NCBI GenBank assembly: GCA_963716935.1
Contig: CAVQUN010000005.1
Span: 384,864 to 448,863, forward strand
DNA: 64,000 nt
From: an uncultured Actinomycetes bacterium
GTDB lineage: Bacteria; Actinomycetota; UBA4738; HRBIN12
Reading direction: 5' to 3'
Part shown: piece after piece, positions 28,865 to 52,431 of the stretch
Layout: the number at the start of each line of letters is the position of its first letter
Numbering within the stretch: the stretch's first letter is position 1
Translations under genes and position numbers: made by a program
Notes under the pieces: model-generated
Database searches by the model: none
What the model saw: only the letters and a program-made list of their open reading frames with translations
What the model was told of the DNA's origin: nothing

Positions 28865-28890
28865 CGAACGAACTCACGAGGGGGAGCGAG

Positions 28891-30279: not shown

Positions 30280-30304
30280 CCATAGGCCTCGAGAGACTCG
30301 TGAG

Positions 30305-31036
30305 ATGCGGCCCGTCCTGCTGATCGGGCACGATCAGAACGAGACCTTCGGGTTGGCCCCGGCCGGCCTCGGGGCTCGAGGGCTGGAGGTCTTTGAGCAC
30401 CGTGCCCCGTCGGGCGGCACGCTCCCTTCGATCGACGCGGTCTCCGGAGTGATCGTCTTCGGGGGATCGATGAACGTGGACATGGTCGACCGTTACCCCT
30501 TCCTCCTGGAGGAGCGAGGCTTCGTGCGCCGGGCCGTCGACGCGGGCGTTCCCCTTCTGGGGATCTGCCTCGGATCGCAGATGCTCGCGAGGGCGATGGG
30601 TCATGAGGTGTATGCGGCCGACGTGCGGGAGTTGGCGTTCAACGTCCTCCACGTGACGCCCGAGGCGGCCGCCGACCCGCTCATGTCCGTGTTCCGCGAC
30701 GGCGACATGGTCTTCCACTGGCACGAGGACACCTTCGAGCTCCCGGAGGGCGCGACGATCCTCGGCACCGGGGACGAAGTCCATCTCCAGGCGTTTCGGA
30801 TCGGCGACCACGCCTGGGGCATGCAGTTCCATTTCGAGATCGACCGGGCCGAGCTGGAGCTCTGGCTCCGGGCGGCTGGCGAGGACGTCGTGCAAGCGTG
30901 GGGGAAGACCACTGCCCAGGTCCTGGATGAGGCCGATCGTTTCTTGGCGACCCAGGAGGCGCGCGCCACCCGGCTCTTCGGCAGGTTCGCAGACGTGGTC
31001 CTGGCGGCGGGGAGAAATCGATCGGCCACCGGCTAG
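30305..31036 (+). CDS. Class I glutamine amidotransferase-like protein 1 (gamma-glutamyl-amide hydrolase candidate)
   Basis: GATase1 fold with nucleophile-elbow GICLGSQ and His/Glu in WHEDTFELP. Confidence 0.8.
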   Translation: MRPVLLIGHDQNETFGLAPAGLGARGLEVFEHRAPSGGTLPSIDAVSGVIVFGGSMNVDMVDRYPFLLEERGFVRRAVDAGVPLLGICLGSQMLARAMGHEVYAADVRELAFNVLHVTPEAAADPLMSVFRDGDMVFHWHEDTFELPEGATILGTGDEVHLQAFRIGDHAWGMQFHFEIDRAELELWLRAAGEDVVQAWGKTTAQVLDEADRFLATQEARATRLFGRFADVVLAAGRNRSATG

Positions 31037-31134
31037 ACAGCGACCGCACTCCGGTGCAAGGATTCGCGACGACGTGACCTGGTGGGGGTTCCCGCCTCGG
31101 CTCGCGGGGTCCCCCCGACAAGGGAGGGGGTCGC

Positions 31135-32721: not shown

Positions 32722-32783
32722 CAGACGATCCGCAGCAGCTGAGGGCCGCTCACGACTCGTGAGCGGCCCTCAACGCTCACCGG

Positions 32784-33959: not shown

Positions 33960-33974
33960 CGGCGTTCCATCCCC

Positions 33975-36715: not shown

Positions 36716-36926
36716 CTGCGCTCCCCTCCTCGGGCTCGCCCCGATCGACCTGCGGTGCTGGGTATAGCGTGAGGGGCCGAGACCCGCAACGCGAGGCGAC
36801 GCGGCCGGCGACGGCCGCTCCCGAGCGACCGGGCGGGACTCCGGGCCACGGGGCGGGTGGGGTACGCTCACGCCGCCGGCGCGACGTTCGGCGGACGACC
36901 GACCGGAGCACGCGAAGGAGGTCCGG

Positions 36927-38318: not shown

Positions 38319-39037
38319 GCCCAACTCCCGCCGGCGCCGCCCCGTTGCGCGCGCTCGTCCTGCAGCACGAGGACCCCACGCCCCCCGGGCTCGTCACCGA
38401 ATGGCTCGCGTCCCACGAGGCCCTCGTCGAGACCTTCCGCATCGACCTGGAGGATCGCGAGCTCGATCCGACCGACTACGACCTCATCGTGTCGCTCGGT
38501 TCCGAGTTCGCCGCGTTCGACGACACGAAGCCGTTCGTGGGGCGCGAGGCCCGGCTCCTGCGTCGAGCCGTCGACGCCGACGTCCCCGTCCTCGGCCTCT
38601 GCTTCGGCGGCCAGATGCTCGCGCGGGTGCTCGGCGCCGACGTGTTCCGCTCCGAGGAGTCCGAGATCGGGTGGCTCCCCGTCCGCAGCACCGATCCCGA
38701 GCTCGTCCCCGAGGGCCCGTGGTTCCAGTGGCACTTCGACTCGTTCACCGCGCCGCCCGGGGCGAGCGTGATCGCCGAGTCCGACGTGGGCCCGCAGGCC
38801 TTCGTCGCGGGTCGCAGCCTCGGGCTGCAGTTCCACCCCGAGGTGACCCCGCAGATCATGGACGACTGGGTGCGCACGTACCGGCATGAGCTCGACGCCG
38901 ACGGGGTCGATCCCGACGCGCTGCTGGAGGAGACGCATCGGCGCGCCGACGAGAGCCGCCGGACGTCGTGGCAGCTCCTCGAGCGGTTCCACGACCGGAT
39001 CGCCGGCCTCGGCGCGCGGGAAGCGACGACGGCGTAG
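38314..39037 (+). CDS. Class I glutamine amidotransferase-like protein 2
   Basis: GTG 38314 in a GTGA overlap with the aminotransferase stop. GATase1 motifs GLCFGGQ and HFDSF...FHPE. The upstream 223 aa of the track ORF are artefact. Confidence 0.8.
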
Positions 39038-39051
39038 GCGGCGGAGGAACC

Positions 39052-40414
39052 GTGCAGGCGACGATCCGATCCGAGCAGACGAGCGTGTTCCCCCGCTTCG
39101 CCGACCTCGCCTACCCGAACGTCGAGCGCGGCGACGGCGTCTGGCTCACGACGACCGACGGACGCCGGATCCTCGACGCCTGCTCCGGCGGCGCGATGGT
39201 GACGTGCCTCGGGTACGGGGTCCCCGAGGTGGTGGCGGCCGCGGCCGAGCAGGCCGAACGCATCGCGTACTTCTACAACCACCACTTCACGAGCGAGCCG
39301 CAGGAGCGATTCGCCGAGCGCCTGCTTGCGATCGCCGCCCCGGAGATGGCGCGAGCGCGATTCGTCTCGGGCGGCTCGGAGGCCAACGAGACCGCGCTGC
39401 AGCTGGCGCGCCTGTACCACGTCGAGCGGGGCGAGCCCGAGCGCTGGCGCGTGATCTCGCCGGCGCAGTCCTACCACGGCTCCACGATGGGGACGCTCGC
39501 GCTGAACGGGAGGCCCGCCCTGCAGGAGCCGTTCACTCCCTACCTCGCCGACCACCTGCACCTGCCGCCGTCGACGTCGCGCTTCGACCCGACCGGCGAG
39601 GCCGCGTTGCAGGAGCTGGATCGCCTCCTCGAACGGGCGGGCCCGGGGACGATCGCCGCCTTCCTCGCCGAGCCCGTGAGCGCGGCGGCGCTGCCCGGGT
39701 ACGCGCCGCCGGAGCGGTTCTGGCGAGGCCTCGCCGAGCGTCGCGAGCGGCACGGGTTCCTCGTCTGCCTCGACGAGGTGGTGACCGGCATGGGCCGCGT
39801 CGGGAGCTGGCTCGCGGCGCACCAGCTGCCGATCGAGCCCGACATCGTCGCGGTCGGCAAGGCGCTCGGCGCCGGGTACGCGCCGCTCGGCGCGGTGCTG
39901 TGCCGCCGGCACGTGTACGACGCCCTCGACCGGGGCTCGCGCGAGTTCGACCTCGGCCATACGTGGGACGGCGCCCCGCTGTCCACCGCGGTCGGGCTCG
40001 CGGTGCTCGACCAGCTCGAAAGCCGGGGCCTGGTCGACCGCGTGCGCGATCGCGGGCCGGCCCTGCGGCAGGAGCTCGCGTCGGCGCTCGCGGGCTTCGG
40101 CGTCGTCGGCGAGGTTCGCGGCCGCGGCTTCCTCCTCGGCGTCGAGCTCGTCGACCCGCGCGACGCGCACGTCGTTCCTGCCGGTCGAGCTCGACGCCGC
40201 GACGATCGTCGACGACCTCGCGCTCGAACACGGCCTCCTCGTCACGTCGACGCATCCCCAGGCGGACGGCTACGCGGGCGACCAGACGCTCCTCGCCCCC
40301 GCCTACACGAGCACCGACGCCGAGCTCGCCGAGATGGTCGAGCGGTTCGCCGCGACGATCGGCGAGGTCGAGCGCGTTCTCGGGCGGACGCTCTCCGGCA
40401 CGAACGCGCCATGA
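39052..40414 (+). pseudogene. Class III aminotransferase 2, apparently +1 frameshifted near 40165
   Basis: Paralogue of aminotransferase 1. Homology runs in frame 1 to ...GVELVDPRDA, then continues in frame 2 (SFLPVELDAATIVDDLALEHGLLVTSTHPQADGYAGDQTLLAPAYT...) to TGA 40412-40414. Frame 1 instead reads an Arg-rich tract into the next gene. Confidence 0.6.
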
Positions 40415-41700
40415 GCGAGCCCCTCGGCGAGTTCATCCTCCTCGGCATGCCCGACGTGAACGGCTCGCTCCGCGGCAAGGCGCTGCGACCCGAGGCGTTC
40501 GAGTCGGCGCTCCGGCACGGGACGGTGATGACGGACCTCCTGCTCGGCCTCGACCCGGTCGACACGCCGATCGCCGACTACGAGCGGTTCGGGATCCGAA
40601 CCGGCGCCGCGGACCTCGTCGTGCACCCGGATCCGGAGACGCTGCACCCGTTGCGATGGCGGCCCGGGTGGCGGGTCTGCCTCGCCACGCCGACCTGGCC
40701 CGACGGCTCGCCCTGCGAGCTCGCCTCGCGAGAGGTGCTACGCCACGTCCTCGACGGCGTCGCCGAGCTGGGGTTCGAGGTGCTCGCCGCGTTCGAGTAC
40801 GAGATCCGGATCTGGGACGCGAACGGCGATCCCCTGTCGAGCGGCATCAGCTACAGCCTCACGGAGATCGACCGCTACGCCGCGTTCGCGTCCGAGCTCG
40901 CCCCGGCGCTTCGAGAGCTCGGGATCGAGCTCTCGGCGGTCCACACCGAGGCCGGGCCGGGACTCCTCGAGCTGAACCTCACGCCCGGGCGCGGCCTTCG
41001 CGCCGCCGACGACGCCGCGTTGGTCAAGTTCGCCGCCAAGCAGCTCGCCGCGTCGATGGGGCTGCGCGCGAGCTTCCTCGCCAAGACGGTTCCGGGAGAG
41101 GAGGGATCGAGCGGCCATCTCCACGTCTCGCTGTGGAACGGCGACGCGAACGCCTTCGCCGCGTCGGACCTCACCCATCCTCTGCCGCCTGCCTTCGACG
41201 CCGCGGTGGCCGGCGTCCTCGACCACCTCCCGGCCGCGTCTTTGCTGCTGAACCCGACGATCAACTCGTACAAGCGGCTCGTCCCGGGATGGTTCGCGCC
41301 GATCAACGCAACCTGGGGGTTCGAGAACCGCTCGTGCGCCGTCCGCGTCATCCGGTCGACCCGGCCCGAGCTGTGGCGGTTCGAGTGCCGGCGCCCCGGC
41401 GCCGACGCCAACCCGTATCTCGCGCTCGCGGCGCTCGTCGCCTCGGTCGCCGACGGCCTCCGGCGCGGGGCGACGCCGCCGGCGCCCGTCGAGGGCGACG
41501 CCTACGCGCGCGACGACCTCCCGGAGCTGCCCGGCTCCCTCGAGGCGGCGCTCGGGGCCTTCGAGGCCGACGCGGTCCTGCGACGCGAGCTCGGCGAGCG
41601 GTTCGCCGAGTACTACGCCACGTCCCGGGCCTGGGAGCTCAAGGCGTGGCGCGAGACGGTCACCGACTGGGAGCGCGAGCGCTACGACCGCGCGGTGTAG
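40411..41700 (+). CDS. Glutamine synthetase-family protein 4
   Basis: ATG 40411 overlaps the frame-2 stop of the upstream aminotransferase (ATGA). GS catalytic motifs (AAFEYEIRIW, GHLHVSLWN, ADANPYLALAA). Confidence 0.85.
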   Translation: MSEPLGEFILLGMPDVNGSLRGKALRPEAFESALRHGTVMTDLLLGLDPVDTPIADYERFGIRTGAADLVVHPDPETLHPLRWRPGWRVCLATPTWPDGSPCELASREVLRHVLDGVAELGFEVLAAFEYEIRIWDANGDPLSSGISYSLTEIDRYAAFASELAPALRELGIELSAVHTEAGPGLLELNLTPGRGLRAADDAALVKFAAKQLAASMGLRASFLAKTVPGEEGSSGHLHVSLWNGDANAFAASDLTHPLPPAFDAAVAGVLDHLPAASLLLNPTINSYKRLVPGWFAPINATWGFENRSCAVRVIRSTRPELWRFECRRPGADANPYLALAALVASVADGLRRGATPPAPVEGDAYARDDLPELPGSLEAALGAFEADAVLRRELGERFAEYYATSRAWELKAWRETVTDWERERYDRAV

Positions 41701-41706
41701 GACCCG

Positions 41707-43005
41707 ATGACCCCGTACCGGCCGCTCGTCGCCGTCGTCGCCTACCACCTCGCCGACGATCGGGTGCCCCGATGGCCGCATGGCGGCTACGGCGTCCCCG
41801 GTCCCTACCTCGACTGCCTCCGGCGGGCCGGCGCCCGCACCGCCATCCTGTCCCCCGGGGAAACGGGATCGCCGCAGGAGCTCCTCGATCCCTTCGACGC
41901 GCTCCTGCTCGTCGGGGGCGGCGACGTCGATCCCGAGCGGTACGCGCAGGCGCCGGGCGAGCACGTGTACGGCGTCGAGGAAGACCGCGACGCGTTCGAG
42001 ATCGACCTCCTGCGAGCCGCCGACGCGATAGGCGTGCCCACCCTGTGTATCTGCCGCGGCATGCAGGTCATGAACGTCGCGTTCGGTGGCACGCTCCTGC
42101 AGCATCTCCCGGTGGTACCGGGCCTCCTCGAGCACGGCGTGCCGGTCCAGGACATCCAGTCGCTGCACGACGTGCGGACGGACCCCGGGAGCCGCCTGCG
42201 GGCGACGGCCGGCGTCGAGACGCTGACGTGCTCGTCGCACCACCATCAGGGCGTCGATCGCGTCGGGGAGGGGTTGCGGGCCACGGGGTGGAGCGAGGAC
42301 GGGCTCGTCGAGGCGATCGAGCGCGAGCCGGGGGGCGGGGCGGACGATCGCCCGTTCGAGGCCGGATGGATGGTGGGCGTGCAGTGGCATCCGGAGGACA
42401 CGGCCGACGGCGACGCCGCACAGCAATCGCTGTTCGACGCGCTCGCGGTCCTCGGCCACGTTCGCGGCACGCGCGCCCGGCCCGGCCTTCGCGCCGGACG
42501 GAGCCGCGCCTACGAGCTGGTCGAGCCCGATCCGGCGTGGGCGGCGATGTTCGAAGAGGAGGCGGATCGGATCCGGGCCGCGCTCGGGCCGGTGGCCGTT
42601 CGCGTGGACCACGTCGGCTCGACGGCGGTTCCCGGGCTCGCGGCCAAGCCGACCATCGACATCCAGGTGTCGGTCGACGCGATGGTGCCGCGCGCCCGCT
42701 TCGTCGAGCCGCTCATCGCCCTTGGGTACGAGTTCGTCGTCGACCCCACCGACACCGAGCACCAGTACCTCCGGCGGGAGATCGACGGCGTGCGCAAGCA
42801 CCAGATTCACGTCTGCGCGGCGGGCGGCGAGTGGGAGGCTCGGCACCTGCGGTTTCGAGACCACCTTCGAGCCCATCCCGAGGACGCCGCCGCATACGAG
42901 GAGCTGAAACGGCGGCTCGTGCGCGAGCACCCGAACGACGTCATGACGTACGTCGACGGCAAGACGCCGTTCATCCGCCGGATCGAGGCGCTCGCCGACC
43001 CGTAG
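41707..43005 (+). CDS. Fusion protein: peptidase C26/class I GATase (PuuD-like gamma-glutamyl hydrolase) + GrpB-family domain
   Basis: N-terminal half has the C26 triad context (LCICRGMQ nucleophile, HHQG, WHPE). C-terminal half has GrpB motifs (VDHVGSTAVPGLAAKPTIDIQV, HQIHVC, FRDHLRAHPE). Confidence 0.8.
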   Translation: MTPYRPLVAVVAYHLADDRVPRWPHGGYGVPGPYLDCLRRAGARTAILSPGETGSPQELLDPFDALLLVGGGDVDPERYAQAPGEHVYGVEEDRDAFEIDLLRAADAIGVPTLCICRGMQVMNVAFGGTLLQHLPVVPGLLEHGVPVQDIQSLHDVRTDPGSRLRATAGVETLTCSSHHHQGVDRVGEGLRATGWSEDGLVEAIEREPGGGADDRPFEAGWMVGVQWHPEDTADGDAAQQSLFDALAVLGHVRGTRARPGLRAGRSRAYELVEPDPAWAAMFEEEADRIRAALGPVAVRVDHVGSTAVPGLAAKPTIDIQVSVDAMVPRARFVEPLIALGYEFVVDPTDTEHQYLRREIDGVRKHQIHVCAAGGEWEARHLRFRDHLRAHPEDAAAYEELKRRLVREHPNDVMTYVDGKTPFIRRIEALADP

Positions 43006-43097
43006 CGAGCCCGGCGCGCAAGCCCCGGCGCTCCCCCATCCGCCGAGTCGCCGAGGCTACGCTGTCCGTTCCGGGTGACGGCGAGGGCGGAGCTGCG

Positions 43098-44201
43098 ATG
43101 GGCGAGTTGAGAATCGTTCGGGCCGAAGGGGATCCCAACGCGCGCGGGCAGCAGATCGGGCGCGAGCTCCGCGACCTCCTCAACGAGTCCGTCGACTTCT
43201 ACCACCGCTACCTGTCTCGTCGCGGGGTCAGCTCGCAAGGGCTCCAGGACGTCCTCACGCCGTATCTCGTCGCCGCCGAGGGCCAGTTCCCCGCGTTCAT
43301 GGCGACGCTGAAGGGGATGTCCGTCGGCGCGATGGTCCCGGTCCTGGAGCTGTTCGCGATCAACGCGTTCGAGGAGCTGGAGCCGATGCTCGAGACGCCC
43401 GAGGGGGCGCTGCGATTCCTTCAGCGGAAGGAGGGCTACCTCGAGCCGCCGTCGCCGCCGATCGAACGCTGCTCCAGCTTCACGGTGACCGGACCCGACG
43501 CGACGATCCTCGCGCACAACGAGCACTGGCTGGCCGGCGACCTCGGCAACATCGCGCTGGTCGTGGACATCCCCGACGACCGCCCCGTTCGCGTGGCCTC
43601 GCCGACCGTCGTCTGCTGCCTGCCGGCCGTGGGGATGAACAGTCACGGCGCCGCGCAGGGCATCGGGTCGCTGACGGCCTCCGACGACGGCGTCGGCGTG
43701 CCGCGCGTGCTGGTGTCCCGGCACTCATTGGAGGCGATGGACCGGGGGGACGCGGTCGCGCGAGCGGGGCTGCCGTCTCGTGCGGGCGGGTACGGGCACA
43801 CCTTCGCGTTCCCCGGCGGCGACGCCTTCGTCGTGGAGACCACCGCGACCGCGCTCGCGGTCGTCGACGAGCCGGCGATCCACACGAACCACTACCTGGA
43901 CCCGGGCCTCGCGCAGCTCGGGCCCGAGCCCTCGGCGGGCAGCCGGGCTCGGTACGCCCGGATCGAGCAGCTGCTCGCCGAGCGATCCCCGCGAACGGTG
44001 CCCGAGGTGATGGATATCCTGCGCGACCACGGCTCTTCTCCTCAGGCGATCTGCCTGCACCCTGACCCCGCCGAGGGCGACGAGGCCTCGGCCGTGCTGT
44101 TCTCGATGGTCGCGGAGCTGGAGGAGGGCAGGATGTGGGTCGCCGCCGGCAACCCGTGCGAGAACGAGTACGAGGAGATCGACCTCGCCGGCGTGCTCTG
44201 A
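43098..44201 (+). CDS. Peptidase C45-family Ntn hydrolase / acyl-CoA:6-APA acyltransferase-like protein
   Basis: ATG 43098. Putative autoproteolytic nucleophile (ERCSSF) and a NEHW block resembling the C45 NEDW region. It is the C-terminal portion of a 1771-aa artefactual ORF. Confidence 0.65.
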   Translation: MGELRIVRAEGDPNARGQQIGRELRDLLNESVDFYHRYLSRRGVSSQGLQDVLTPYLVAAEGQFPAFMATLKGMSVGAMVPVLELFAINAFEELEPMLETPEGALRFLQRKEGYLEPPSPPIERCSSFTVTGPDATILAHNEHWLAGDLGNIALVVDIPDDRPVRVASPTVVCCLPAVGMNSHGAAQGIGSLTASDDGVGVPRVLVSRHSLEAMDRGDAVARAGLPSRAGGYGHTFAFPGGDAFVVETTATALAVVDEPAIHTNHYLDPGLAQLGPEPSAGSRARYARIEQLLAERSPRTVPEVMDILRDHGSSPQAICLHPDPAEGDEASAVLFSMVAELEEGRMWVAAGNPCENEYEEIDLAGVL

Positions 44202-44427
44202 GCTTCGCTGACCTGCGGTCAGTTTCGGAGCAATCGAACCGCTGCTGCCTGCCGAATCGGTGGCTACCGAAGCGCTCGGGGTCCGTGCTATACAGACCGC
44301 CGATGCCGGATCCCGCGCGGCTCGTCGTCCCGGACGGCAATCGCGCGCAACTCCGGCGGTCGCGCGCGTCCGTAGGCCTCGAGGGGGGTCCGCGGCGAAC
44401 CGGGGACGGCCGGAAGGAGGAGGCGCG

Positions 44428-46311
44428 ATGAGGGGCTCCAGGGGCAGGTTCGGGATCGCGGTGGCGCTCGTCACGATCCTCGCGACGGGGGCGTTCGCGA
44501 GCGTGGCCCTCGCGCAGGACACCGGGTCGACCGGGTCGACCGGGAGCGACGGCGGTGCGCCCGTCCGGTTCACCTGGGGATCGTCCAGCGAGCCGAGCTC
44601 GCTGAACCCGATGGCGGGCTATCTCGGGACGGACTTCTACTTCTGGACGGCGAGCTACCACCTGCTGGTCAACTTCGACCAGAACCTCGGCGCACGCCCC
44701 GGGCTCGCGACCGACATCGAGACGAGCCCCGACAACATGCAGTTCACGTACACGATCCGCGACGACGTCACCTGGTCCGACGGCGAACCCCTCACCGCCG
44801 AGGACGTCGCGTTCACCCTGAACCTGTACAAGTTCAACCACGCGTACCTGCCGCAGGGCTACCTGACGCTGATCGACGGCGAGGTGACGGCGCCCGACGC
44901 CACCCACGTCACGTTCCGCACCAAGGAGCCGACCGGCCTATACAGCGGACAGTTCCCCTACATGTACGACTACATCCTGCCCAAGCACGTGTTCGAGGGC
45001 ATCGACAAGCCGAAGCAGTACGAGAACGTGCCGCAGGTGGCGAGCGGCCCATTCATGATCACCGACTACCAGATCGGCGAGTTCGTGCAGCTCGAGAAGA
45101 ACCCGTACTGGACCGGCCCCGAGCCCGCGGTCGACGAGCTCATCTATCGCATCTACAAGAACGAGGACGCGCTCGCACAGGCGCTCAAGCAGGGTGAGAT
45201 CGACTTCGCCTACTTCTCGTCGGCAAACATCTACAACTCGCTCATCGACCAGCCGAACATCGGCACGATGGCCGGCAGCGTGCCGGCCTTCGACGAGATC
45301 GGGATGAACACGGGATCCGCATATCAGGATCCCTCCGGCGACTTCGTCCCGCACGGCGATGGCCATCCCGCACTCACCGACGTCACCGTCCGGCGCGCCA
45401 TCCGGATGGCGATCAACAGCGAGGACCTCACGCAGAAGGTGCTCCTTGGGTACGGCATCCCGGGGGACACCATCATTCCGCCCGTCTCCGTCCCCGGGGC
45501 GAGATGGACGCCGACGGGCGACGACGTCATCCCCTGGGACATCCCCGGGGCGAACCAGCTCCTCGACGACGCCGGCTACGTCGATACCGACGGAGACGGC
45601 GTCCGGGAGATGCCGCCCGGCTCGCTCGAGCCCGGCCGCCCGCTCGAGTTCCGGTACTACGTGCGGACGAGCGAACAGACCTCCATCGACGCCTCCCCGT
45701 TCGTCTCCGAGTGGCTGAGCCAGATCGGGATCAAGGCCAACGTCGAGGCGGTGACCTCGAACTCCCTCGGCGACATCATCAACGCGGGGACGTACGACCT
45801 GTTCTCGTGGGGCTGGCTGCCCGACCCCGATCCCTCGGGCCAGCTCAACGTGTTCACGTGCGTCGAGCGCCCGCCCGACGGCAGCACCTACGGCAACAAC
45901 GACCCCTATTACTGCAACCCGCAGTACGACGATCTGTACCAACAGCAACTATCTGAGCTCGACCCCGACAAGCGGTTAGAGATCGCCCACGAGATGCAGA
46001 AGATCTTCTACGAGGACTCCGCGTATGCGGTCATGTGGTACGAGCCGCTCTTCCAGGCCTACCGAACCGATCGCTTCACGGGGTACGCCCCACAGCCCGA
46101 GCCGAAGGGCGACCTGCTCCAGGGCTACGGCGGACCGAGCGACATCTGGACGACGCTCAAGCCCGTGAGCGCCTCCGAGGGAGGGACCACGAGCTCCGAG
46201 GAATCGCGCGGGATCCCGGCGGCTGTGTGGCTCGGCGCGGTGGCCCTGGTCGCCATCATCGTCGTGGTCATGGTCGTGCGGGGTCGCCGCCCCGACGAGG
46301 ACGAGGCATAG
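44428..46311 (+). CDS. ABC transporter substrate-binding protein, family 5 (peptide/opine/nickel type), with Sec signal and C-terminal TM anchor
   Basis: SBP_bac_5 architecture. ATG 44428 behind RBS GGAAGGAGGAGG. N-terminal signal peptide, Ser/Thr/Gly linker, and a C-terminal hydrophobic helix followed by RGRRPDEDEA. Confidence 0.85.
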   Translation: MRGSRGRFGIAVALVTILATGAFASVALAQDTGSTGSTGSDGGAPVRFTWGSSSEPSSLNPMAGYLGTDFYFWTASYHLLVNFDQNLGARPGLATDIETSPDNMQFTYTIRDDVTWSDGEPLTAEDVAFTLNLYKFNHAYLPQGYLTLIDGEVTAPDATHVTFRTKEPTGLYSGQFPYMYDYILPKHVFEGIDKPKQYENVPQVASGPFMITDYQIGEFVQLEKNPYWTGPEPAVDELIYRIYKNEDALAQALKQGEIDFAYFSSANIYNSLIDQPNIGTMAGSVPAFDEIGMNTGSAYQDPSGDFVPHGDGHPALTDVTVRRAIRMAINSEDLTQKVLLGYGIPGDTIIPPVSVPGARWTPTGDDVIPWDIPGANQLLDDAGYVDTDGDGVREMPPGSLEPGRPLEFRYYVRTSEQTSIDASPFVSEWLSQIGIKANVEAVTSNSLGDIINAGTYDLFSWGWLPDPDPSGQLNVFTCVERPPDGSTYGNNDPYYCNPQYDDLYQQQLSELDPDKRLEIAHEMQKIFYEDSAYAVMWYEPLFQAYRTDRFTGYAPQPEPKGDLLQGYGGPSDIWTTLKPVSASEGGTTSSEESRGIPAAVWLGAVALVAIIVVVMVVRGRRPDEDEA

Positions 46312-46342
46312 GAGCGTTCGAAGGAGGCCCGCCCGAACCGTC

Positions 46343-47326
46343 ATGCGCGGCTACCTGGTCGGCAAGGTCCTGCAGGCCTTCCTCACGCTGCTGTTCGTCG
46401 TGGCCTTCAACTTCTTCCTGTTCCGGATCGTTCCCGGCGACCCCGCGGCGCTGCTCCTGCGCGGCACGTCCGCCTACAACCCCGAGAGCGTCGAGGCCCT
46501 CCGGCACGACCTCGGCCTGGACAAGCCGCTCCCGCAGCAGTTCGTCATCTACATCAAGGACACGTTCACGCTGAACTTCGGGCAGTCGTTCTTCCTGCGG
46601 GGGGCGCCGGTCTACGACGTCATCCGCGACAAGGTCTGGCCCACGGTGCTGCTGGTCGGCACCTCGACGATCGCGTCCGCCGTGATCGGCCTCATCATCG
46701 GCATCTACGGCGGCTGGAAACGCGGGAGCTCGTTTGACGTCGGGTCCCTCGGGTTCACGCTGTTCGTCTACGCCATGCCCGAGTTCTGGTTCGGGATCCT
46801 CGTCCTCATGGCGTTCGCCGGGGGGGTGGGGCCCTTCCCTGCCTTGTTCCCCACCGGGGGGTACGAGACCCCCGCATCCGGGCTCACGGGGATGGCACAC
46901 GTCGTCGACGTCCTGAACCACATGGTCCTGCCGTTCTTCGTCCTCACCGTGGCTTATCTGGGCGAGTACTCGCTCATCATGCGGAACTCGCTCATCGACG
47001 TGATGAACGACGACTTCGTCCAAACGGCGCGAGCCAAGGGCGTGCGCGAGAAGAAGGTGCTGTGGGACCACGTCGTTCCCAACGCGGCGCTCCCCACCCT
47101 CACCCTCACGCTGCTGTCCCTCGGGTTCGTCTTCTCCGGAGCCATCACCATCGAGTACGTCTTCTCGTGGCCCGGTCTCGGGTGGCTCACCGTGCAGGCC
47201 ATCGACGCCAACGACTACGCGTTGCTCCAGGGGCTCTTCTTCCTGTTCTCGGCGGCGGTGATCGTCGCGAACCTGCTCGCGGACGTCCTGTACTCGTACC
47301 TCGATCCCCGCGTGAGGGCGGCCTAG
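46343..47326 (+). CDS. ABC transporter permease (DppB/OppB-like)
   Basis: BPD_transp_1 family, with an N-terminal conserved region typical of DppB. Confidence 0.88.
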   Translation: MRGYLVGKVLQAFLTLLFVVAFNFFLFRIVPGDPAALLLRGTSAYNPESVEALRHDLGLDKPLPQQFVIYIKDTFTLNFGQSFFLRGAPVYDVIRDKVWPTVLLVGTSTIASAVIGLIIGIYGGWKRGSSFDVGSLGFTLFVYAMPEFWFGILVLMAFAGGVGPFPALFPTGGYETPASGLTGMAHVVDVLNHMVLPFFVLTVAYLGEYSLIMRNSLIDVMNDDFVQTARAKGVREKKVLWDHVVPNAALPTLTLTLLSLGFVFSGAITIEYVFSWPGLGWLTVQAIDANDYALLQGLFFLFSAAVIVANLLADVLYSYLDPRVRAA

Positions 47327-47327
47327 C

Positions 47328-48305
47328 ATGCGCCCGTCCGAGCCGATGGGGCACGTCCTCGACGCGCCGCCGGCCGGCAGCGAGCTCGAGCCCGGCCCGC
47401 CCGCAGAACCGCCCCGATCCGGGCGCTCGATCGTCTGGTCGCGGCGCCGGCGCTCGGCCAAGCGGATCTGGGCGGTCTACCGCAAGAGCAAGATGGGGAT
47501 GTGGGGGCTGTACATCCTCGCCTTCTTCATCCTCGTGGCGATCTTCGCGCCGCTCATCGCGCCCCGCGAGGCGCTGAACGCGACCTGCCCGTGCAACGGC
47601 GTCCCGTTCAGCCCGCCGAGCCCGGGGTTCCCGTTCGGCACCGACAACTTCGGGCGCTCGGTCTTCGCGCTGACCGTCTGGGGAACGCGGATCTCGCTCA
47701 CGGTCGGGCTGCTCGCCACGGCGATCTCCATGGTGATCGGCTCGCTGATCGGCATCGTGGCCGGCTACTACGGCCGGTGGCCCGAGTCGGTGTTGATGCG
47801 CCTCACGGACTGGTTCCTCGTGATCCCGTTCCTGCCGCTCGCGATCGTGCTCGCGTCCATCCTCGGGCAATCGCTGGGGGTGATCATCCTCGTCATCGGG
47901 ATCACCTCGTGGCCGAGCACCGCCCGCATCATCCGGGCACAGGTGCTGTCCGTGAAGACGCGAGCGTACGTCGAGCGCGGTCAGGCGCTCGGCGCCAGCG
48001 GCTGGCATACAGTCTCCCGCCACATCCTGCCGAACGTCGGTCCGCTGATCCTTGCGAACACGATCCTGACGATCGCGATCGCGATCCTGTCGGAAACCAC
48101 CCTGGCGTTCCTCGGCCTCGGTGACCCGCTCACGATCTCCTGGGGCCGCATCCTCGAGTTCGCCTTCGGCGCCGGCGCGGCCGGAGCCGGGCAGTGGTGG
48201 TGGCTCGTCCCGCCCGGGCTCGCGATCGTCTTCGTCGTGCTGGCGTTCACGATGTGCGGGTTCGCCCTCGACGAGATCGTCAACCCGAAGCTGCGCCGGC
48301 GATGA
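47328..48305 (+). CDS. ABC transporter permease (DppC/OppC-like)
   Basis: BPD_transp_1 family with the EAA-like loop. The next gene starts in an ATGA overlap. Confidence 0.85.
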   Translation: MRPSEPMGHVLDAPPAGSELEPGPPAEPPRSGRSIVWSRRRRSAKRIWAVYRKSKMGMWGLYILAFFILVAIFAPLIAPREALNATCPCNGVPFSPPSPGFPFGTDNFGRSVFALTVWGTRISLTVGLLATAISMVIGSLIGIVAGYYGRWPESVLMRLTDWFLVIPFLPLAIVLASILGQSLGVIILVIGITSWPSTARIIRAQVLSVKTRAYVERGQALGASGWHTVSRHILPNVGPLILANTILTIAIAILSETTLAFLGLGDPLTISWGRILEFAFGAGAAGAGQWWWLVPPGLAIVFVVLAFTMCGFALDEIVNPKLRRR

Positions 48306-49287
48306 GCATCCTGTCGGTCCGTGACCTCGCGATCACCTATTCCACGCAGGGCGGGCCCGTGCCCGCCGTTCGCGGCGTGACCTTCGACATCGAGAAGGGC
48401 GAGGTGCTGGGCCTCGCCGGCGAGTCCGGGTGCGGCAAGTCGACGATCGTGAACGCCATCCTGCGCCTGCTGCCACCCGAGACGAAGGTCGAGGGTGAGG
48501 TGGTGCTGGGCGGCGAGGACGTGCTGTCGATGAAGCCGGGACGCCTGCGCGCCGTGCGATGGACCGAGGCGTCGGTCGTGTTCCAGGGCGCGATGCATGC
48601 GCTGAATCCCGTGCAGCGGGTCGGCGATCAGATCGCCGAGGCGATCGTGATCCACGGGCAGGCCGGCGAGCGCGAGGCGTTGGTGCGGGTCGGCGGTCTG
48701 CTCGAGCAGGTCGGCCTGCCGCCGCGACGGCTTCGCGACTACCCGCACGAGCTCTCGGGCGGCCAGAAGCAGCGCGTGATGATCGCGATGGCCCTCGCGT
48801 GCAGCCCGAGTCTCGTGATCGCCGACGAGCCCACGACCGCCCTCGACGTGATGGTCCAGGCGCAGGTGCTGAAGCTCCTCAAGAGCCTCCAGCGCGAGCT
48901 CGGCCTCGCGATGCTGTTCATCACGCACGACCTGTCCGTGCTCGTCGAGGTCTCGGACCGGCTCGCGATCATGTACGCCGGGAAGATCATCGAGGAGGGG
49001 ACCGCGCGCGAGGTCTTCGACAGCCCGAAGCACCCGTACTCGGAGGCGCTCGCGGCGGCATTCCCGGCGATCGGCGACGAGCGGTTCCGCCGCAACCCAT
49101 CGGGGCTGGGCGGCGATCCTCCCGACCCGGCGGCGATCCCCTCCGGCTGCTCGTTCCATCCGCGGTGCCCGGTCGCGTTCGAGCCCTGCTCGACGACGGT
49201 GCCGGAGCTCTACGCCGCGGGGGAGGGGCGTCGCGCCGCGTGCCTGCTCGTCGAAGGCGCGCTCGTCGACGCTCCGAGGACGGCCGA

Positions 49288-49291
<4 letters not shown>
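48302..49291 (+). CDS. ABC transporter ATP-binding protein (DppD/OppD-like)
   Basis: Walker A GESGCGKST, LSGGQKQR, Walker B, and an oligopeptide-transporter C-terminal domain with Cys cluster. Confidence 0.9.
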
Positions 49292-50361
<1,070 letters not shown>

Positions 50362-50385: not shown

Positions 50386-51048
50386 CTAGCCGGCCTCGCT
50401 CGCGTCGCCGGGATCGAGGTCCTCCGGCCCGCCCTTCAGGACGCCGAGGATCGCCTCCATCTCGGTGTCGCCGACCGGCGCGTCGCGGCCAGCCCCCTTG
50501 GCCGCCGCGAGCAGGGTCCGAAGGTTGCTCTCGGCCATCTCGGCCCGCGCCTCGAGCTCCTTGGTTCGGGCCGAGAGCGCCGCGGCCCGCCGCTCGGCGT
50601 CGTCGCGGGCCGCCTGCGCCTCGCGAGCCTCCTCCCGCGCGGTGCGAAGGGCTCCGCGCAGCGTCCCAACCTCGCGTCCGAGATCGACGAGCCGGTCCAC
50701 CACCTCACGCCCGAAGTCGGAGTACGAGGTGCGCTTGCCGCCGGTCGCTCGCCCGTCGGCGGTCGGAGCGGCCGACGCTGCAGCCTTCGCACGGCGCGGC
50801 CGCGGCACCTGCTCGCGCTCCCCGGCGTCGATCGGCCGAGCGTCGAGCAGCCGGTAGCGGCCGTCGACCGCCTCCAGGCGCCGCCGGGCAAGGAGCGCCC
50901 GGATCGCGCGCGCGGCCGCGAGCGGCTCCTCCACTCCGATCTCGCGGCCGAGCTCGGCGGGCGACAGATCCACGAGCTCGCCGGTGCTCGCGCGGGCGGC
51001 GACGGCCGCGAGGAAGGCGTTCGCCCGGTCGAGGCTCTCCTGGTTCAC
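50386..51048 (-). CDS. Hypothetical protein with winged-helix-like N-terminus and coiled-coil C-terminus
   Basis: GTG 51048. N-terminal region resembles a wHTH, followed by a basic linker and an Ala/Glu/Arg-rich coiled coil. The 5' half of the 409-aa track ORF is artefact. Confidence 0.4.
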   Translation of the reverse strand: MNQESLDRANAFLAAVAARASTGELVDLSPAELGREIGVEEPLAAARAIRALLARRRLEAVDGRYRLLDARPIDAGEREQVPRPRRAKAAASAAPTADGRATGGKRTSYSDFGREVVDRLVDLGREVGTLRGALRTAREEAREAQAARDDAERRAAALSARTKELEARAEMAESNLRTLLAAAKGAGRDAPVGDTEMEAILGVLKGGPEDLDPGDASEAG

Positions 51049-51264
51049 GCCGGTAATCGTGCTGCATTCGGGCGGGTCGCGCCAGTCCGGGGTGCGCGGG
51101 AGCGGAACAGCGTCGCGAGCCTGCCGTGAGGCCGAGAAAGAGTGACAAAACCGGTCGCCCGATTTGACCGCGGGGTCGCCGCGATGGTGGAATGCGCGTG
51201 GCGCCGCTGGAACCCTCGGGTTCCGGCGGCGCCGCTCATTTCGACCCCTCGAGGAGCCCCGTTC

Positions 51265-52431
51265 GTGCCCGACCCCGTGACCGACCCCGAACGGCTCCCG
51301 CTCGCCGGGGTCCGCGTCGCCGACTTCTCCCGCGTCCTGGCGGGGCCCCTGGCCACGATGCTCCTCGCCGACCTCGGCGCCGACGTCGTCAAGGTGGAGC
51401 GGCCGGGAACGGGCGACGACACGAGGGGGTGGGGACCGCCGTTCGTCGGCGACGACGCCGCCTACTTCCTCTCGCTGAACCGGAACAAGCGATCCGTCGT
51501 GCTGGACCTCGCGACCGACGAGGGGCGCTCGCTCGCCCGGCGCCTCGCGCTCGGAAGCGACGTGGTCGTCGAGAACTTCCGCCCTGGCCTCATGGAGCGA
51601 TTCGGGCTCGACCACCCCTCGCTCTCGGCCGAGCGCCCGGGGCTCGTCTACTGCTCGCTCACGGCGTTCGGCGACGACGGCGAGTCGGCGTCGAAGCCCG
51701 GGTACGACATCATCGTGCAGGCCCTATCCGGGCTCATGAGCGTCACGGGGCACCCCGGCGGCGAGCCCACGAAGGTTGGTGTGGCGCTGCTCGACGTGAT
51801 CTGCGGGCTCTACGCGGCGAACGCGATCCAGGCGGCGCTCGTCGGGCGAGCCGAGACGGGACGCGGGGCGAGGGTGTCGGTCTCGTTGTTCGACGCGAGC
51901 GTCGCGGCGATGGTGAACCAGGCCGCGAACTACCTGCTCGGCGGTCTCGTCCCGGGGCCGATGGGCAACGCCCACCCCAACATCGTTCCCTACCAGCTGT
52001 TCCGCGCGTCCGACCGCCCCTTCATCCTCGCCGCCGGCAACGACCGGCTGTTCGAGCGCACGTGCGAGGTGCTCGGGCTCGCTTCGCTCGCGACCGACGA
52101 GCGGTTCGCGACGAACGAGGCCCGCGTCCGACGGCGGGACGAGCTGATCCCCGTGCTCGCGGAGGCCTTCGCCGCGCGGCCCGCCGCCGAGTGGCTGGCG
52201 CGGCTCGAGGCCGCGTCCGTTCCGTGCGCCGCGGTCCGCACGCTCGACGAGGTGTTCGCGTCGCCGGAGGGCGCCGCATCGGTGCAGCGGGTGCCCGACC
52301 CCGTGCGCGGTCCGCTCGACCTCGTCGCCGATCCGATCCGGGTCGACGGTCGACGCCCCCCTGTACGACTCGCGCCTCCTCTGCTCGGGGAGCACACGGA
52401 CGAGATCGTCCGGGAGCTGACCGAGTCGTGA
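51265..52431 (+). CDS. Family III CoA-transferase (CaiB/BaiF/formyl-CoA transferase-like)
   Basis: CoA_transf_3 motifs (GVRVADFSRVLAGP, the catalytic Asp region). GTG 51265 behind RBS GAGGAG. The upstream 41 codons of the track ORF are doubtful. Confidence 0.8.
   Translation: MPDPVTDPERLPLAGVRVADFSRVLAGPLATMLLADLGADVVKVERPGTGDDTRGWGPPFVGDDAAYFLSLNRNKRSVVLDLATDEGRSLARRLALGSDVVVENFRPGLMERFGLDHPSLSAERPGLVYCSLTAFGDDGESASKPGYDIIVQALSGLMSVTGHPGGEPTKVGVALLDVICGLYAANAIQAALVGRAETGRGARVSVSLFDASVAAMVNQAANYLLGGLVPGPMGNAHPNIVPYQLFRASDRPFILAAGNDRLFERTCEVLGLASLATDERFATNEARVRRRDELIPVLAEAFAARPAAEWLARLEAASVPCAAVRTLDEVFASPEGAASVQRVPDPVRGPLDLVADPIRVDGRRPPVRLAPPLLGEHTDEIVRELTES

What the first reader, a model, noticed from the sequence alone, without database searches (positions are those of the whole stretch)
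43098..44201. C45-family Ntn-hydrolase (acyl-CoA:6-APA acyltransferase-like) embedded in the GS-like island
C45 enzymes self-cleave to expose an N-terminal Cys and carry out acyl transfer or amide hydrolysis (penicillin acyltransferase, choloylglycine-hydrolase relatives). Its position right after the GS/GATase genes and before a peptide/opine ABC importer suggests acyl exchange on a gamma-glutamyl or other amide intermediate. This step is not part of known puu/pau pathways.
Basis: inference. Interest (0 to 1): 0.5.

Follow-up and report, generated by a model that had tools for sequence, protein, structure and literature searches.

The report
Self-cleaving C45 amidase beside peptide importer
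The gene is a real but uncharacterised member of the C45 family of self-cleaving cysteine amidases; in uncultured soil Actinomycetota it sits in a conserved cluster between a gamma-glutamyl-hydrolase-type gene and a peptide-type ABC importer, so it most likely breaks an amide bond in an imported compound, which makes it a fairly ordinary find.

Summary
Window 43098-44201 (+) encodes a 367-aa protein. It matches NCBIfam C45_proenzyme over its full length (164.7 bits, cutoff 85) and Pfam AAT (E 7.6e-15). Its AlphaFold model superposes on Penicillium isopenicillin-N acyltransferase (TM 0.77-0.80). The predicted nucleophile Cys125 is invariant in 81 orthologues and lies where the first core beta-strand begins (strand 126-131). 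The residue before it is Arg or His, not the Gly of IAT.

The context claim is only partly right. Across 80 species-level genomes, all uncultured Actinomycetota at 58-85% identity:
- A Peptidase_C26 gene lies directly upstream in 61 of 74, with a 4-8 bp stop/start overlap in 14.
- An Opp/Dpp-type ABC importer lies downstream in 58 of 61.
- GS-like genes are variable neighbours and often absent.
- Most relatives carry a creatininase-family and/or S66 LD-carboxypeptidase gene between C45 and the importer. The window's lineage has lost both.

Sister clades at about 45% identity share none of this context. Some ~25%-identical C45 genes elsewhere again sit with ABC importers or other amidases.

The best reading is a cytoplasmic Ntn amidohydrolase acting on an imported amide or peptide-like compound. 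The substrate is unknown. Acyl exchange on gamma-glutamyl intermediates is not excluded but has no specific support. This is a new member of a known kind, of modest interest.

The parts
43098..44201 (+). C45-family (AAT/IAT-like) Ntn cysteine hydrolase proenzyme gene, 367 aa
   Evidence: HMM hits are above the curated cutoffs. The model has pLDDT 82 and pTM 0.87. The top Foldseek hit is IAT 2x1c (E 2.6e-20, TM 0.77-0.80).
43098..43469 (+). Predicted N-terminal pro-segment (residues 1-124), mostly helical, ending in a low-confidence linker (residues 117-123)
   Evidence: One search gives helices 13-110 and pLDDT below 50 for residues 117-123. The profile aligns residues 9-116 with the IAT alpha-chain. 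Cleavage itself is inferred, not shown.
43470..43472 (+). Codon of Cys125, the predicted autoproteolytic site and N-terminal nucleophile (motif E-R|C-S-S-F)
   Evidence: Invariant in 31 sequences and in 81 sequences. P1 is Arg in 77 and His in 4. The first core beta-strand, 126-131, starts directly after it.
41707..43005 (+). Peptidase_C26 (PuuD/SpuA-like class-I GATase hydrolase) fused to a GrpB domain, the conserved upstream neighbour, 92 nt before C45
   Evidence: Pfam C26 E 1.3e-48 and GrpB E 2.4e-50. The catalytic motifs CICRGMQ and QWHPE are intact. Nearest PDB entries are Lin1909, 7d4r (which I take to be P. aeruginosa SpuA) and PuuD. It lies directly upstream of C45 in 61 of 74 loci, and 33 of those carry the GrpB fusion.
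44281..44295 (+). Conserved GTCCGTGCTATACAG motif in the C45-SBP spacer, possibly the -10 region of a separate promoter for the ABC operon
   Evidence: The TGCTA core is invariant in 7 related spacers and the longer motif is shared by 5. There is a single exact copy in the window. Function is inferred only.
44428..46311 (+). SBP_bac_5 (cluster C) substrate-binding protein with an N-terminal signal/anchor-like segment
   Evidence: Pfam E 8.8e-76. No NCBIfam equivalog is reached; the best is Opp4A at 157 bits against 650. The nearest PDB entries are peptide/oligosaccharide binders at E about 1e-30.
46343..47326 (+). ABC permease (DppB/OppB type)
47328..48305 (+). ABC permease (DppC/OppC type)
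48302..49291 (+). ABC ATPase (OppD type)
   Evidence: ORF. It is 68-87% identical in related loci.
49288..50361 (+). ABC ATPase (OppF type, with the oligo_HPY C-terminal region); the start is approximate
30305..31036 (+). Stand-alone class-I GATase ('GAT1'). In most relatives its orthologue sits directly upstream of the C26 gene. In the window it is separated from C26 by about 10.7 kb of extra GS-like, aminotransferase and permease genes.
   Evidence: The Cys/His/Glu triad is intact.
50386..51030 (-). Conserved hypothetical gene (about 212 aa in relatives, no Pfam hit) that follows the ABC operon on the opposite strand in nearly all loci; the start is approximate
51184..52431 (+). Family III CoA-transferase, a conserved but more distant neighbour; its link to C45 is weak
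   Evidence: Pfam E 5.6e-129. The best NCBIfam match is succinate-glutarate CoA-transferase, 401 bits against a cutoff of 750.

Best explanation
The gene encodes a cytoplasmic C45-family N-terminal-nucleophile (Ntn) cysteine hydrolase made as a proenzyme.

Inferred mechanism, by analogy with IAT: the chain cleaves itself between Arg124 and Cys125. The new N-terminal Cys125 then attacks an amide carbonyl of a small substrate and forms a thioester. The intermediate is stabilised by an oxyanion hole that includes Asn264, and water resolves it. The net reaction is amide hydrolysis (deacylation).

Inferred role: the substrate is an amide or peptide-like compound brought in by the adjacent Opp/Dpp-type ABC importer. 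The enzyme works alongside the upstream C26 gamma-glutamyl-hydrolase-type enzyme. In most relatives a creatininase-family and/or S66 LD-carboxypeptidase is also part of the cluster.

Shown here: family membership, the predicted fold, conservation of the catalytic residues and conservation of the gene neighbourhood. Inferred only: autoproteolysis, hydrolase rather than transferase chemistry, and the link to the importer. The substrate is unknown.
For: Family and fold:
- HMM hits are above the curated cutoffs.
- The profile hits IAT in the PDB at E 6e-13.
- The model (pLDDT 82) matches IAT at TM 0.77-0.80, followed by acid ceramidase, NAAA, penicillin V acylase and bile salt hydrolase.

Catalytic residues:
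- Cys125, H140, E142, W144, D148, R203, R208, N264 and H321 are invariant in 81 orthologues.
- N264, in the HTNHY motif, aligns with IAT N246.
- Cys125 lies directly before the first core strand, after a low-confidence linker.
- I saw no obvious N-terminal signal-like hydrophobic stretch in the sequence; no predictor was run.

Context in 80 species-level genomes:
- C26 lies directly upstream in 61 of 74, and in 14 the C26 stop overlaps the C45 start by 4-8 bp.
- The ABC importer lies within 4.5 kb downstream in 58 of 61.
- This order persists while the genes upstream of C26 change between GS1-GAT1, AT-GAT-AT-GS4 and a divergent CoA-transferase plus GAT1.
- A creatininase-family gene (29 loci) or an S66 gene (21 loci) lies between C45 and the SBP.

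Independent recurrence in some ~25%-identical C45 genes:
- Streptomyces sp. SAT1 has C45 directly upstream of a 5-gene peptide-type ABC operon.
- R. etli has C45 next to a divergent ABC operon and an M20 peptidase.
- Pantoea has glnHPQ followed by C45.
- Haladaptatus has M20, C45 and an ArgE/DapE deacylase together.
- S. cadmiisoli has an ABC operon, a deacetylase and C45.

Characterised non-fungal C45 enzymes are hydrolases. Tan hydrolyses beta-alanyl-dopamine and carcinine (PMC1285064). AzsT removes a succinyl group (PMC10445470).
Against: - No biochemical data exist for this orthogroup, and no PDB sequence is closer than IAT at 17-19% identity.
- All 80 loci come from one lineage at 58-85% identity, so part of the synteny may be inherited order rather than functional linkage.
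- Sister clades at about 45% identity have unrelated contexts.
- In the window the ABC operon is separated from C45 by 226 nt that carry a conserved promoter-like motif. Co-transcription with the importer is therefore not indicated.
- The ligand class of the SBP cannot be read from sequence. Its nearest solved relatives are annotated as peptide, chitin-oligosaccharide and nickel binding proteins.
- P1 is Arg or His instead of Gly, so self-cleavage is assumed rather than demonstrated.
Confidence: 0.55

Rival explanations
1. The enzyme acts as an acyltransferase or transamidase inside the GS-like (gamma-glutamylation) pathway. It would swap the gamma-glutamyl group, or another acyl group, on an amide intermediate, possibly with an acyl-CoA donor as IAT does.
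For: - It belongs to the same family and fold as IAT, the one C45 enzyme that uses acyl-CoA.
- It lies directly after a C26 gamma-glutamyl-hydrolase-type gene, with translational coupling in 14 relatives.
- Four GS-like genes lie upstream in the window.
- A family III CoA-transferase is a conserved neighbour. It is downstream in 28 loci and replaced by an upstream paralogue in 6, never both.
Against: - GS-like genes are not conserved next to the cluster, and many loci have none within reach.
- The basal clade lacks C26, and no GS-like gene is seen there wherever the upstream flank can be read.
- IAT residues Arg302, Ser309 and Arg310 align with Leu320, Glu329 and Ala330 here. Their role in substrate binding is from my memory.
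- The CoA-transferase is separated from C45 by the whole ABC operon and an opposite-strand gene. The 6 loci with the upstream paralogue lie close together on the C45 tree, so they may reflect a single event.
- Tan and AzsT are plain hydrolases.
Confidence: 0.1
2. Feeder amidase, like Drosophila Tan. C45 hydrolyses imported N-acyl-amine or N-aminoacyl-amine conjugates and releases a free amine. The neighbouring GS-like, aminotransferase and C26 enzymes then catabolise that amine by gamma-glutamylation.
For: - Tan, a C45 enzyme, hydrolyses beta-alanyl-dopamine and beta-alanyl-histamine (PMC1285064).
- The window has APC permeases, 4 GS-like genes, 2 class-III aminotransferases, an aldehyde dehydrogenase and a C26 hydrolase, which is a gamma-glutamylation-type amine catabolic set.
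- This reading explains why C45 is glued to C26 while still being next to an importer.
Against: - The variable presence of GS-like genes counts against it, as above.
- Creatininase-family and S66 partners in relatives point to peptides rather than amine conjugates.
- No sequence feature ties this protein to Tan more closely than to IAT. This was not tested, because no Tan sequence was available in the tools.
Confidence: 0.12
3. Salvage of peptidoglycan stem peptides or other gamma-glutamyl or D-amino-acid peptides. The ABC system imports such peptides. S66 removes the C-terminal D-Ala, C26 and GAT1 open gamma-glutamyl or amide bonds, and C45 (with the creatininase-family enzyme) cleaves a remaining unusual peptide bond.
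For: - S66 LD-carboxypeptidase genes lie next to C45 in 21 of 72 loci. In the basal clade they are together with a creatininase-family gene.
- The importer is of the same SBP family as the murein-peptide binder MppA, which is a weak PDB hit at E 4e-12.
- The C26 family cleaves gamma-glutamyl bonds.
Against: - The window itself has neither an S66 nor a creatininase-family gene anywhere in its 64 kb.
- The S66 match to LdcA is far below the equivalog cutoff, 128 bits against 378.
- To my knowledge no C45 enzyme is known to act on muropeptides.
- The idea is entirely inferential.
Confidence: 0.13
4. The neighbourhood is inherited gene order with no functional meaning. C45 has an unrelated housekeeping or detoxifying amidase role.
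For: - All loci with this synteny belong to one lineage.
- Sister clades at 45-50% identity have heterogeneous contexts.
- Gaps of 92 nt and 226 nt flank the gene in the window.
Against: - The C26-C45-ABC order survives several rearrangements on both sides. These include the swap of GS1-GAT1 for GS4, the insertion and loss of creatininase-family and S66 genes, and the gain of the GrpB fusion.
- Stop/start overlaps occur in 14 loci.
- Some unrelated C45 clades independently sit next to ABC importers.
Confidence: 0.1

Closest known systems
Acyl-CoA:isopenicillin N acyltransferase (IAT, PenDE) of Penicillium chrysogenum, MEROPS C45, PDB 2x1c/2x1d/2x1e
   Same: Same Pfam and NCBIfam family and the same predicted fold, at TM 0.77-0.80. 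Both have a pro-segment of about 100-125 residues followed by a Cys nucleophile at the start of a strand. The HTNH motif with the Asn is conserved: IAT N246 corresponds to N264 here.
   Different: Only 17-19% identity. The cleavage site is Arg/His-Cys instead of Gly102-Cys103 (PMC1285064). IAT Arg302, Ser309 and Arg310 are replaced by Leu, Glu and Ala. The setting is a bacterial catabolic-looking operon, not a beta-lactam cluster. The linker before the Cys is longer.
Drosophila Tan (N-beta-alanyl-dopamine / carcinine hydrolase), C45
   Same: A C45 member that works as a plain amide hydrolase releasing an amine (PMC1285064). This is the functional model for the hydrolase reading.
   Different: It is an animal enzyme with a Gly-Cys site. 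No sequence comparison was made here.
AzsT / Tri14 (Streptomyces azaserine and triacsin pathways), C45
   Same: A bacterial (actinomycete) C45 enzyme shown in vitro to remove an N-succinyl group by hydrolysis (PMC10445470).
   Different: It acts on a carrier-protein-bound intermediate inside an NRPS-type biosynthetic cluster. No carrier protein, NRPS or hydrazine-synthesis genes are near the window gene.
Puu/Spu and GlnA2/GlnA3/GlnA4 gamma-glutamylation pathways (PuuA-PuuD; PMC5403932, PMC8998196, PMC6529630)
   Same: The genes upstream of C45 are of these types: GS-like ligases, a C26 hydrolase related to PuuD and SpuA, class-III aminotransferases and permeases.
   Different: None of these pathways, as I know them, includes a C45 enzyme or a peptide-type ABC importer. 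I saw the cited papers only as search listings and did not read them for this point. The GS-like and C26 proteins here score below every NCBIfam equivalog cutoff.
Choloylglycine hydrolase / penicillin V acylase (C59) and acid ceramidase / NAAA (C89)
   Same: Same Ntn cysteine-hydrolase superfold, with structural hits at E 1e-8 to 1e-4.
   Different: These are different families. The TM scores are much lower (0.42-0.62) and there is no significant sequence match.

Membership tests
Peptidase family C45 (AAT/IAT-like Ntn hydrolases) | Significant match to the family profiles above the curated cutoffs | tested here: met
   Pfam PF03417 scores 55.6 bits against 23.2. NCBIfam NF040521 scores 164.7 bits against 85 over the full length.
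Peptidase family C45 (AAT/IAT-like Ntn hydrolases) | Ntn alpha-beta-beta-alpha fold like IAT, with an N-terminal helical pro-segment | tested here: met
   The predicted model has pLDDT 82. Foldseek places IAT first at E 2.6e-20 and TM 0.77-0.80. This rests on a prediction, not a solved structure.
Peptidase family C45 (AAT/IAT-like Ntn hydrolases) | Conserved Cys nucleophile at the pro-segment/core junction | tested here: met
   Cys125 is invariant in 81 sequences and lies directly before strand 126-131.
Peptidase family C45 (AAT/IAT-like Ntn hydrolases) | Gly-Cys autoprocessing motif, as in IAT Gly102-Cys103 and in Tan | tested here: not met
   P1 is Arg in 77 sequences and His in 4. I do not regard Gly as strictly defining, because, from my own knowledge, the related Ntn enzymes acid ceramidase and NAAA cleave after non-Gly residues.
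Peptidase family C45 (AAT/IAT-like Ntn hydrolases) | Autoproteolytic maturation into two chains | not testable with these tools
   This needs recombinant protein, SDS-PAGE or mass spectrometry, and a C125A control.
IAT-type acyl-CoA-dependent acyltransferase (function, EC 2.3.1.164) | IAT residues Arg302, Ser309 and Arg310 (substrate-binding role recalled from memory) and acyl-CoA use | tested here: not met
   The profile alignment puts Leu320 (or His321), Glu329 and Ala330 at these positions. Acyl-CoA use itself is not testable here.
Puu / GlnA3-type gamma-glutamylation pathway | The enzyme corresponds to a known step: ligase, oxidase or aminotransferase, dehydrogenase, or C26 hydrolase | tested here: not met
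   C45 matches none of these families. GS-like genes are not conserved next to the gene.
AzsT/Tri14-type biosynthetic deacylase | Located in a cluster with a carrier protein, an NRPS and hydrazine-forming genes | tested here: not met
   Pfam annotation of most predicted genes in the 64-kb window shows none of these.

The most novel reading that the evidence does not exclude
The conserved block is GATase, C26, C45, (creatininase-family / S66), an Opp-type importer and a family III CoA-transferase. It could be an undescribed pathway by which abundant uncultured soil Actinomycetota scavenge a class of unusual amide-linked compounds. Candidates are peptidoglycan stem peptides, gamma-glutamyl peptides and N-dicarboxyacyl conjugates. 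In this reading the C45 enzyme would have a new substrate specificity, or would transfer an acyl group in a CoA-linked reaction, rather than acting as a generic amidase.
Probability: 0.15. Interest if true: 0.55.

Novelty: new member of a known kind. Interest (0 to 1): 0.3.

Why it matters
To my knowledge only three C45 enzymes have known functions (IAT, Tan, AzsT/Tri14). The family nevertheless holds more than 2,000 clusters at 50% identity. This orthogroup is present in at least 80 species-level genomes of uncultured soil Actinomycetota and sits in a stable gene cluster. That makes it a reasonable target for assigning a new C45 substrate and for understanding organic-nitrogen scavenging in soil. 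Nothing found here challenges current ideas about the family.

Tried and rejected
- Rfam scan of the whole window found no RNA family.
- The sigma-70 promoter and intrinsic-terminator scan of 41.5-46.5 kb found nothing.
- A single-sequence PDB search found nothing significant. Only the profile reached IAT.
- The afdb50 fold library was not available.
- An exact-sequence look-up of the window protein found nothing on record, so the source of the window stays unknown.
- Literature searches for bacterial C45 functions returned only Tan, IAT and AzsT/ThzT. A search for LD-carboxypeptidase with creatininase and ABC transporter returned nothing.
- The Bradyrhizobium plasmid context was uninformative because it is full of IS elements. 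The Ensifer record has no annotation.
- I considered that the 910-aa ORF 38968-41700 was an aminotransferase-GS fusion and rejected it. The junction is out-of-frame Arg-rich sequence, and the true aminotransferase C-terminus is in another frame.
- I considered the complementary distribution of the two CoA-transferase paralogues as evidence for a CoA-linked role. I downgraded it because the 6 exceptional loci lie close together on the C45 tree.
- I could not settle which acidic residue, E142 or D148, corresponds to IAT Asp121. No alignment of that segment was produced and no coordinates were accessible.
Full report

Yes. The window is high-GC (66-74%), so mechanical ORF listing buries the gene inside a spurious 1771-aa ORF.

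- Translation from the ATG at 43098 to the stop at 44199-44201 gives a clean 367-aa protein.
- Codon-position GC is that of a real gene in this genome: GC3 0.93 and GC2 0.47.
- The start is preceded by a purine-rich stretch, and the 30 aligned orthologues start at the same Met.
- Pfam AAT (PF03417) matches at E 7.6e-15, 55.6 bits against a cutoff of 23.2.
- NCBIfam NF040521, 'C45 family autoproteolytic acyltransferase/hydrolase', matches end to end: profile 1-313 of 313, 164.7 bits against a cutoff of 85.

**2. The protein itself**

A single-sequence search of the PDB finds nothing significant. A profile of 31 orthologues finds Penicillium isopenicillin-N acyltransferase (IAT, 2x1c/2x1d/2x1e) at E 6e-13.

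An AlphaFold2 model built on that alignment has mean pLDDT 82 and pTM 0.87. Foldseek against the PDB gives:
- IAT first, at E 2.6e-20, TM 0.77-0.80 and 17-19% identity;
- then the wider Ntn cysteine-hydrolase superfold: the 66.3-kDa lysosomal protein, acid ceramidase, NAAA, CV2077, penicillin V acylases and bile salt hydrolases.

The model has a helical N-terminal segment (helices between residues 13 and 110). A linker of very low confidence follows (residues 117-123, pLDDT below 50). Cys125 comes next, and the first core strand (126-131) begins directly after it. That is the expected layout of an Ntn proenzyme.

Conservation:
- Cys125 is invariant in 81 orthologues.
- So are H140, E142, W144, D148, R203, R208, N264 (motif HTNHY), H321 and others.
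- The profile alignment places N264 on IAT N246 and R208 on IAT R186.

Two differences from IAT stand out:
- The residue before the nucleophile is Arg (77 of 81) or His (4 of 81), not the Gly of the IAT and Tan Gly-Cys site (PMC1285064).
- IAT Arg302, Ser309 and Arg310, which I recall as substrate-binding, align with Leu320, Glu329 and Ala330.

The catalytic core is therefore kept while the IAT-specific substrate contacts are not. I saw no obvious signal-like hydrophobic stretch at the N-terminus (no predictor was run), so the enzyme is probably cytoplasmic. Autoproteolysis is inferred and was not tested.

**3. The neighbourhood in the window**

From 36927 to 50361 eleven genes run on the + strand:
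- class-III aminotransferase (36927);
- class-I GATase (38315);
- a second class-III aminotransferase (about 39061);
- a GS-like ligase (40411);
- a Peptidase_C26-GrpB fusion (41707-43005);
- the C45 gene (43098);
- SBP_bac_5 (44428), two permeases and two ATPases with oligo_HPY tails.

Further upstream are two APC permeases, three more GS-like genes, another GATase and an Amidohydro_2 gene. Downstream are an opposite-strand conserved hypothetical gene, a family III CoA-transferase and a methyltransferase.

None of the GS-like proteins, the C26 domain, the SBP or the CoA-transferase reaches an NCBIfam equivalog cutoff. The C26 domain has an intact Cys/His/Glu triad. Its nearest solved relatives are Lin1909, the probable amidotransferase 7d4r (which I take to be P. 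aeruginosa SpuA) and E. coli PuuD.

C45 is 92 nt from the C26-GrpB stop. It is 226 nt from the SBP start, which has a strong GGAGG-type RBS.

**4. Is the neighbourhood conserved?**

The protein has 977 homologues at E<=1e-5. The best 120 are at least 70% identical and come from soil or metagenome Actinomycetota. A scan of one genome per species returned 80 loci at 58-85% identity, all from uncultured Actinomycetota MAGs. I mapped the window's proteins onto these loci by tblastn.

- A C26 gene lies directly upstream of C45 in 61 of 74 loci with enough flank. In 33 of these it carries the GrpB fusion.
- In 14 of the 80 loci the C26/GrpB stop overlaps the C45 start by 4-8 bp, the usual sign of translational coupling.
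- The ABC importer lies within 4.5 kb downstream in 58 of 61 evaluable loci.
- What precedes C26 is not constant. It can be GS1-GAT1, the AT-GAT-AT-GS4 block as in the window, or a divergent CoA-transferase paralogue plus GAT1. Several loci have no GS-like gene nearby at all; L003, for example, has GreA and then GATase-C26-C45.
- Compared with the common order perm-GS1-GAT1-C26-C45 (L001/L006), the window looks as if about 10.7 kb of extra GS-like, aminotransferase and permease genes were inserted between GAT1 (30305) and C26 (41707).

**5. Partners that the window lacks**

In most relatives a further gene lies between C45 and the SBP:
- a creatininase-family hydrolase in 29 of 72 loci (Pfam E 3.5e-72);
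- an S66 LD-carboxypeptidase-family protein in 21 of 72 loci (Pfam E about 1e-34 for each of its two domains);
- nothing in 22 of 72, as in the window.

On a neighbour-joining tree of the C45 proteins, six of the eight loci of the most divergent clade (L071, L075-L077, L079, L081; 60-64% identity) carry C45-creatininase-S66. They have no C26 (the upstream flank of L075 is too short to judge) and no ABC importer where the flank is long enough to tell. L083 keeps creatininase and S66 together with an importer, and L080 has an importer. The window's own clade has lost both extra genes.

Neither gene occurs anywhere in the 64-kb window. The older partners of this C45 are therefore other peptidase or amidase genes, not GS-like ligases.

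**6. How far does the linkage extend?**

An exhaustive search of 1.84 billion cluster representatives gives 2,217 C45-like clusters at E<=1e-3, and 84 at E<=1e-30. The window's orthogroup is essentially one 50%-identity cluster. The next full-length clusters are 44-47% identical.

Four loci from these sister clades show unrelated and mutually different contexts:
- a GCV_T-like gene overlapping the C45 start, with an AstE/AspA-family gene nearby;
- a class-III aminotransferase, an amidase, an S9 peptidase and a second AAT paralogue;
- no recognisable metabolic partner genes next to C45 in the other two loci.

The C26-C45-ABC arrangement is therefore specific to the orthogroup.

Some much more distant C45 genes (~25% identity) on annotated plasmids and chromids again sit in import or hydrolysis operons:
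- Streptomyces sp. SAT1 has C45 directly upstream of a five-gene peptide-type ABC operon, with a MurR/RpiR regulator.
- Rhizobium etli has C45 beside a GntR regulator, a divergent ABC operon and an M20 peptidase. An aminotransferase, deacetylases and succinate-semialdehyde dehydrogenase follow.
- Pantoea has glnHPQ followed by C45.
- Haladaptatus has M20, C45 and an ArgE/DapE deacylase.
- S. cadmiisoli has a polyamine-type ABC operon, a polysaccharide deacetylase and C45.

This recurrence in several unrelated lineages is the best argument that prokaryotic C45 enzymes commonly serve as intracellular amidases for imported compounds.

**7. Transcription units**

No terminator-like or sigma-70-like site was found, and there is no Rfam hit.

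Aligning the C45-SBP spacer with those of six close relatives that also lack the creatininase-family and S66 genes shows a conserved motif, GTCCGTGCTATACAG (window 44281-44295). Its TGCTA core is invariant, and the window has only one exact copy.

I read this as a possible -10 region. The importer would then have its own promoter, and C45 would be the last gene of the upstream unit that contains C26. This is an inference only.

**8. What it most likely does**

I commit to a cytoplasmic, self-processing Ntn cysteine amidohydrolase. It would hydrolyse an amide bond in a small compound taken up by the adjacent importer, working in series with the C26 hydrolase.

- The hydrolase rather than transferase reading rests on the company it keeps. 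That company is hydrolases of four other families across relatives and, in distant clades, M20, ArgE/DapE and deacetylases.
- It also rests on the two characterised non-fungal C45 enzymes being hydrolases: Tan (PMC1285064) and AzsT (PMC10445470).
- The substrate cannot be named from these data.

Three narrower ideas remain open:
- a Tan-like feeder that frees amines for the GS-like pathway;
- salvage of peptidoglycan stem peptides or gamma-glutamyl peptides, suggested by the S66 and C26 genes and the MppA-type importer family;
- removal of a dicarboxyacyl group whose acid is then activated by the nearby CoA-transferase. That enzyme's best NCBIfam match is succinate-glutarate CoA-transferase, which is sub-threshold.

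It has no specific support and loses weight because GS-like genes are dispensable neighbours.

**9. Comparison, novelty and score**

The protein passes the sequence, fold and nucleophile tests for family C45. It fails only the Gly-Cys motif, which I do not regard as strictly defining. It does not fit IAT's substrate-binding pattern, a known step of the Puu/GlnA3 pathways, or an AzsT-type biosynthetic setting.

It is a new, uncharacterised member of a known enzyme kind, in a conserved cluster that is typical of how prokaryotic C45 genes are arranged. A specialist would find the conserved C26-C45-importer block and the interchangeable creatininase-family and S66 partners mildly interesting as a route to a new C45 substrate. 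It would not be surprising. Interest is 0.3.

Noticed in passing
window 39061-40413 (+), break near 40165-40175: The second class-III aminotransferase is frameshifted. Its N-terminal ~370 residues are in the frame of ORF 38968-41700. Its last ~80 residues (SFLPVELDAATIVDDLALEHGLLV...NAP*) are in the next frame. This is either an assembly or sequencing indel or a pseudogene. It also makes the aminotransferase and the GS-like gene look like a 910-aa fusion, which they are not.
   Followed up: partly
window 41707-43005 (+): The C26 gamma-glutamyl-hydrolase-type domain is fused to a GrpB domain, a fold also found at the C-terminus of some dephospho-CoA kinases. The fusion is present in 33 of 61 orthologous loci and absent in the rest. 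Its role is unknown.
   Followed up: partly
related loci, e.g. L003:11103-11921, L035:5994-6965, L076:11128-12896: Relatives carry a creatininase-family gene and/or an S66 LD-carboxypeptidase-family gene directly after C45. The most divergent clade has both, without C26. The window's clade has lost both.
   Followed up: yes
window 51184-52431 (+) and loci L051, L056, L059-L061, L065, L070, L074, L078: A family III CoA-transferase lies downstream of the ABC operon in 28 loci. In 6 evaluable loci this copy is missing and a ~50%-identical paralogue lies 4-6 kb upstream on the opposite strand, next to GAT1. No locus has both. This probably reflects one evolutionary event.
   Followed up: partly
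window 50386-51030 (-): A conserved hypothetical gene with no Pfam hit follows the ABC operon on the opposite strand in nearly all loci. Its N-terminus looks like a winged-helix DNA-binding domain and the rest like a coiled coil, so it may be a regulator.
   Followed up: no
window 27089-43005: An unusually dense set of gamma-glutamylation-type genes: four GS-like ligases (28891, 33975-, 35387-, 40411), three class-I GATases, two class-III aminotransferases, two APC permeases and an Amidohydro_2 gene. An aldehyde dehydrogenase lies at 20204-21748 (-). All the GS-like proteins score below the NCBIfam equivalog cutoffs.
   Followed up: partly
window 44281-44295 (+): The motif GTCCGTGCTATACAG lies in the C45-SBP spacer. 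Five of seven related spacers share the longer motif (the window has the exact 15-mer) and the TGCTA core is invariant in all seven. The window has a single exact copy. It may be a promoter -10 region or an operator. Several relatives also show a nearby palindrome, TTCGAACCGCCGTTCAA.
   Followed up: partly
L001/L006 (OY969934.1) 11288-16225: In this long-read MAG the SBP and permease genes are called as fragments and odd fusions (107 aa, 287 aa, and permease+ATPase). This suggests indel errors in that assembly. Gene calls from these MAGs should be read with care.
   Followed up: no
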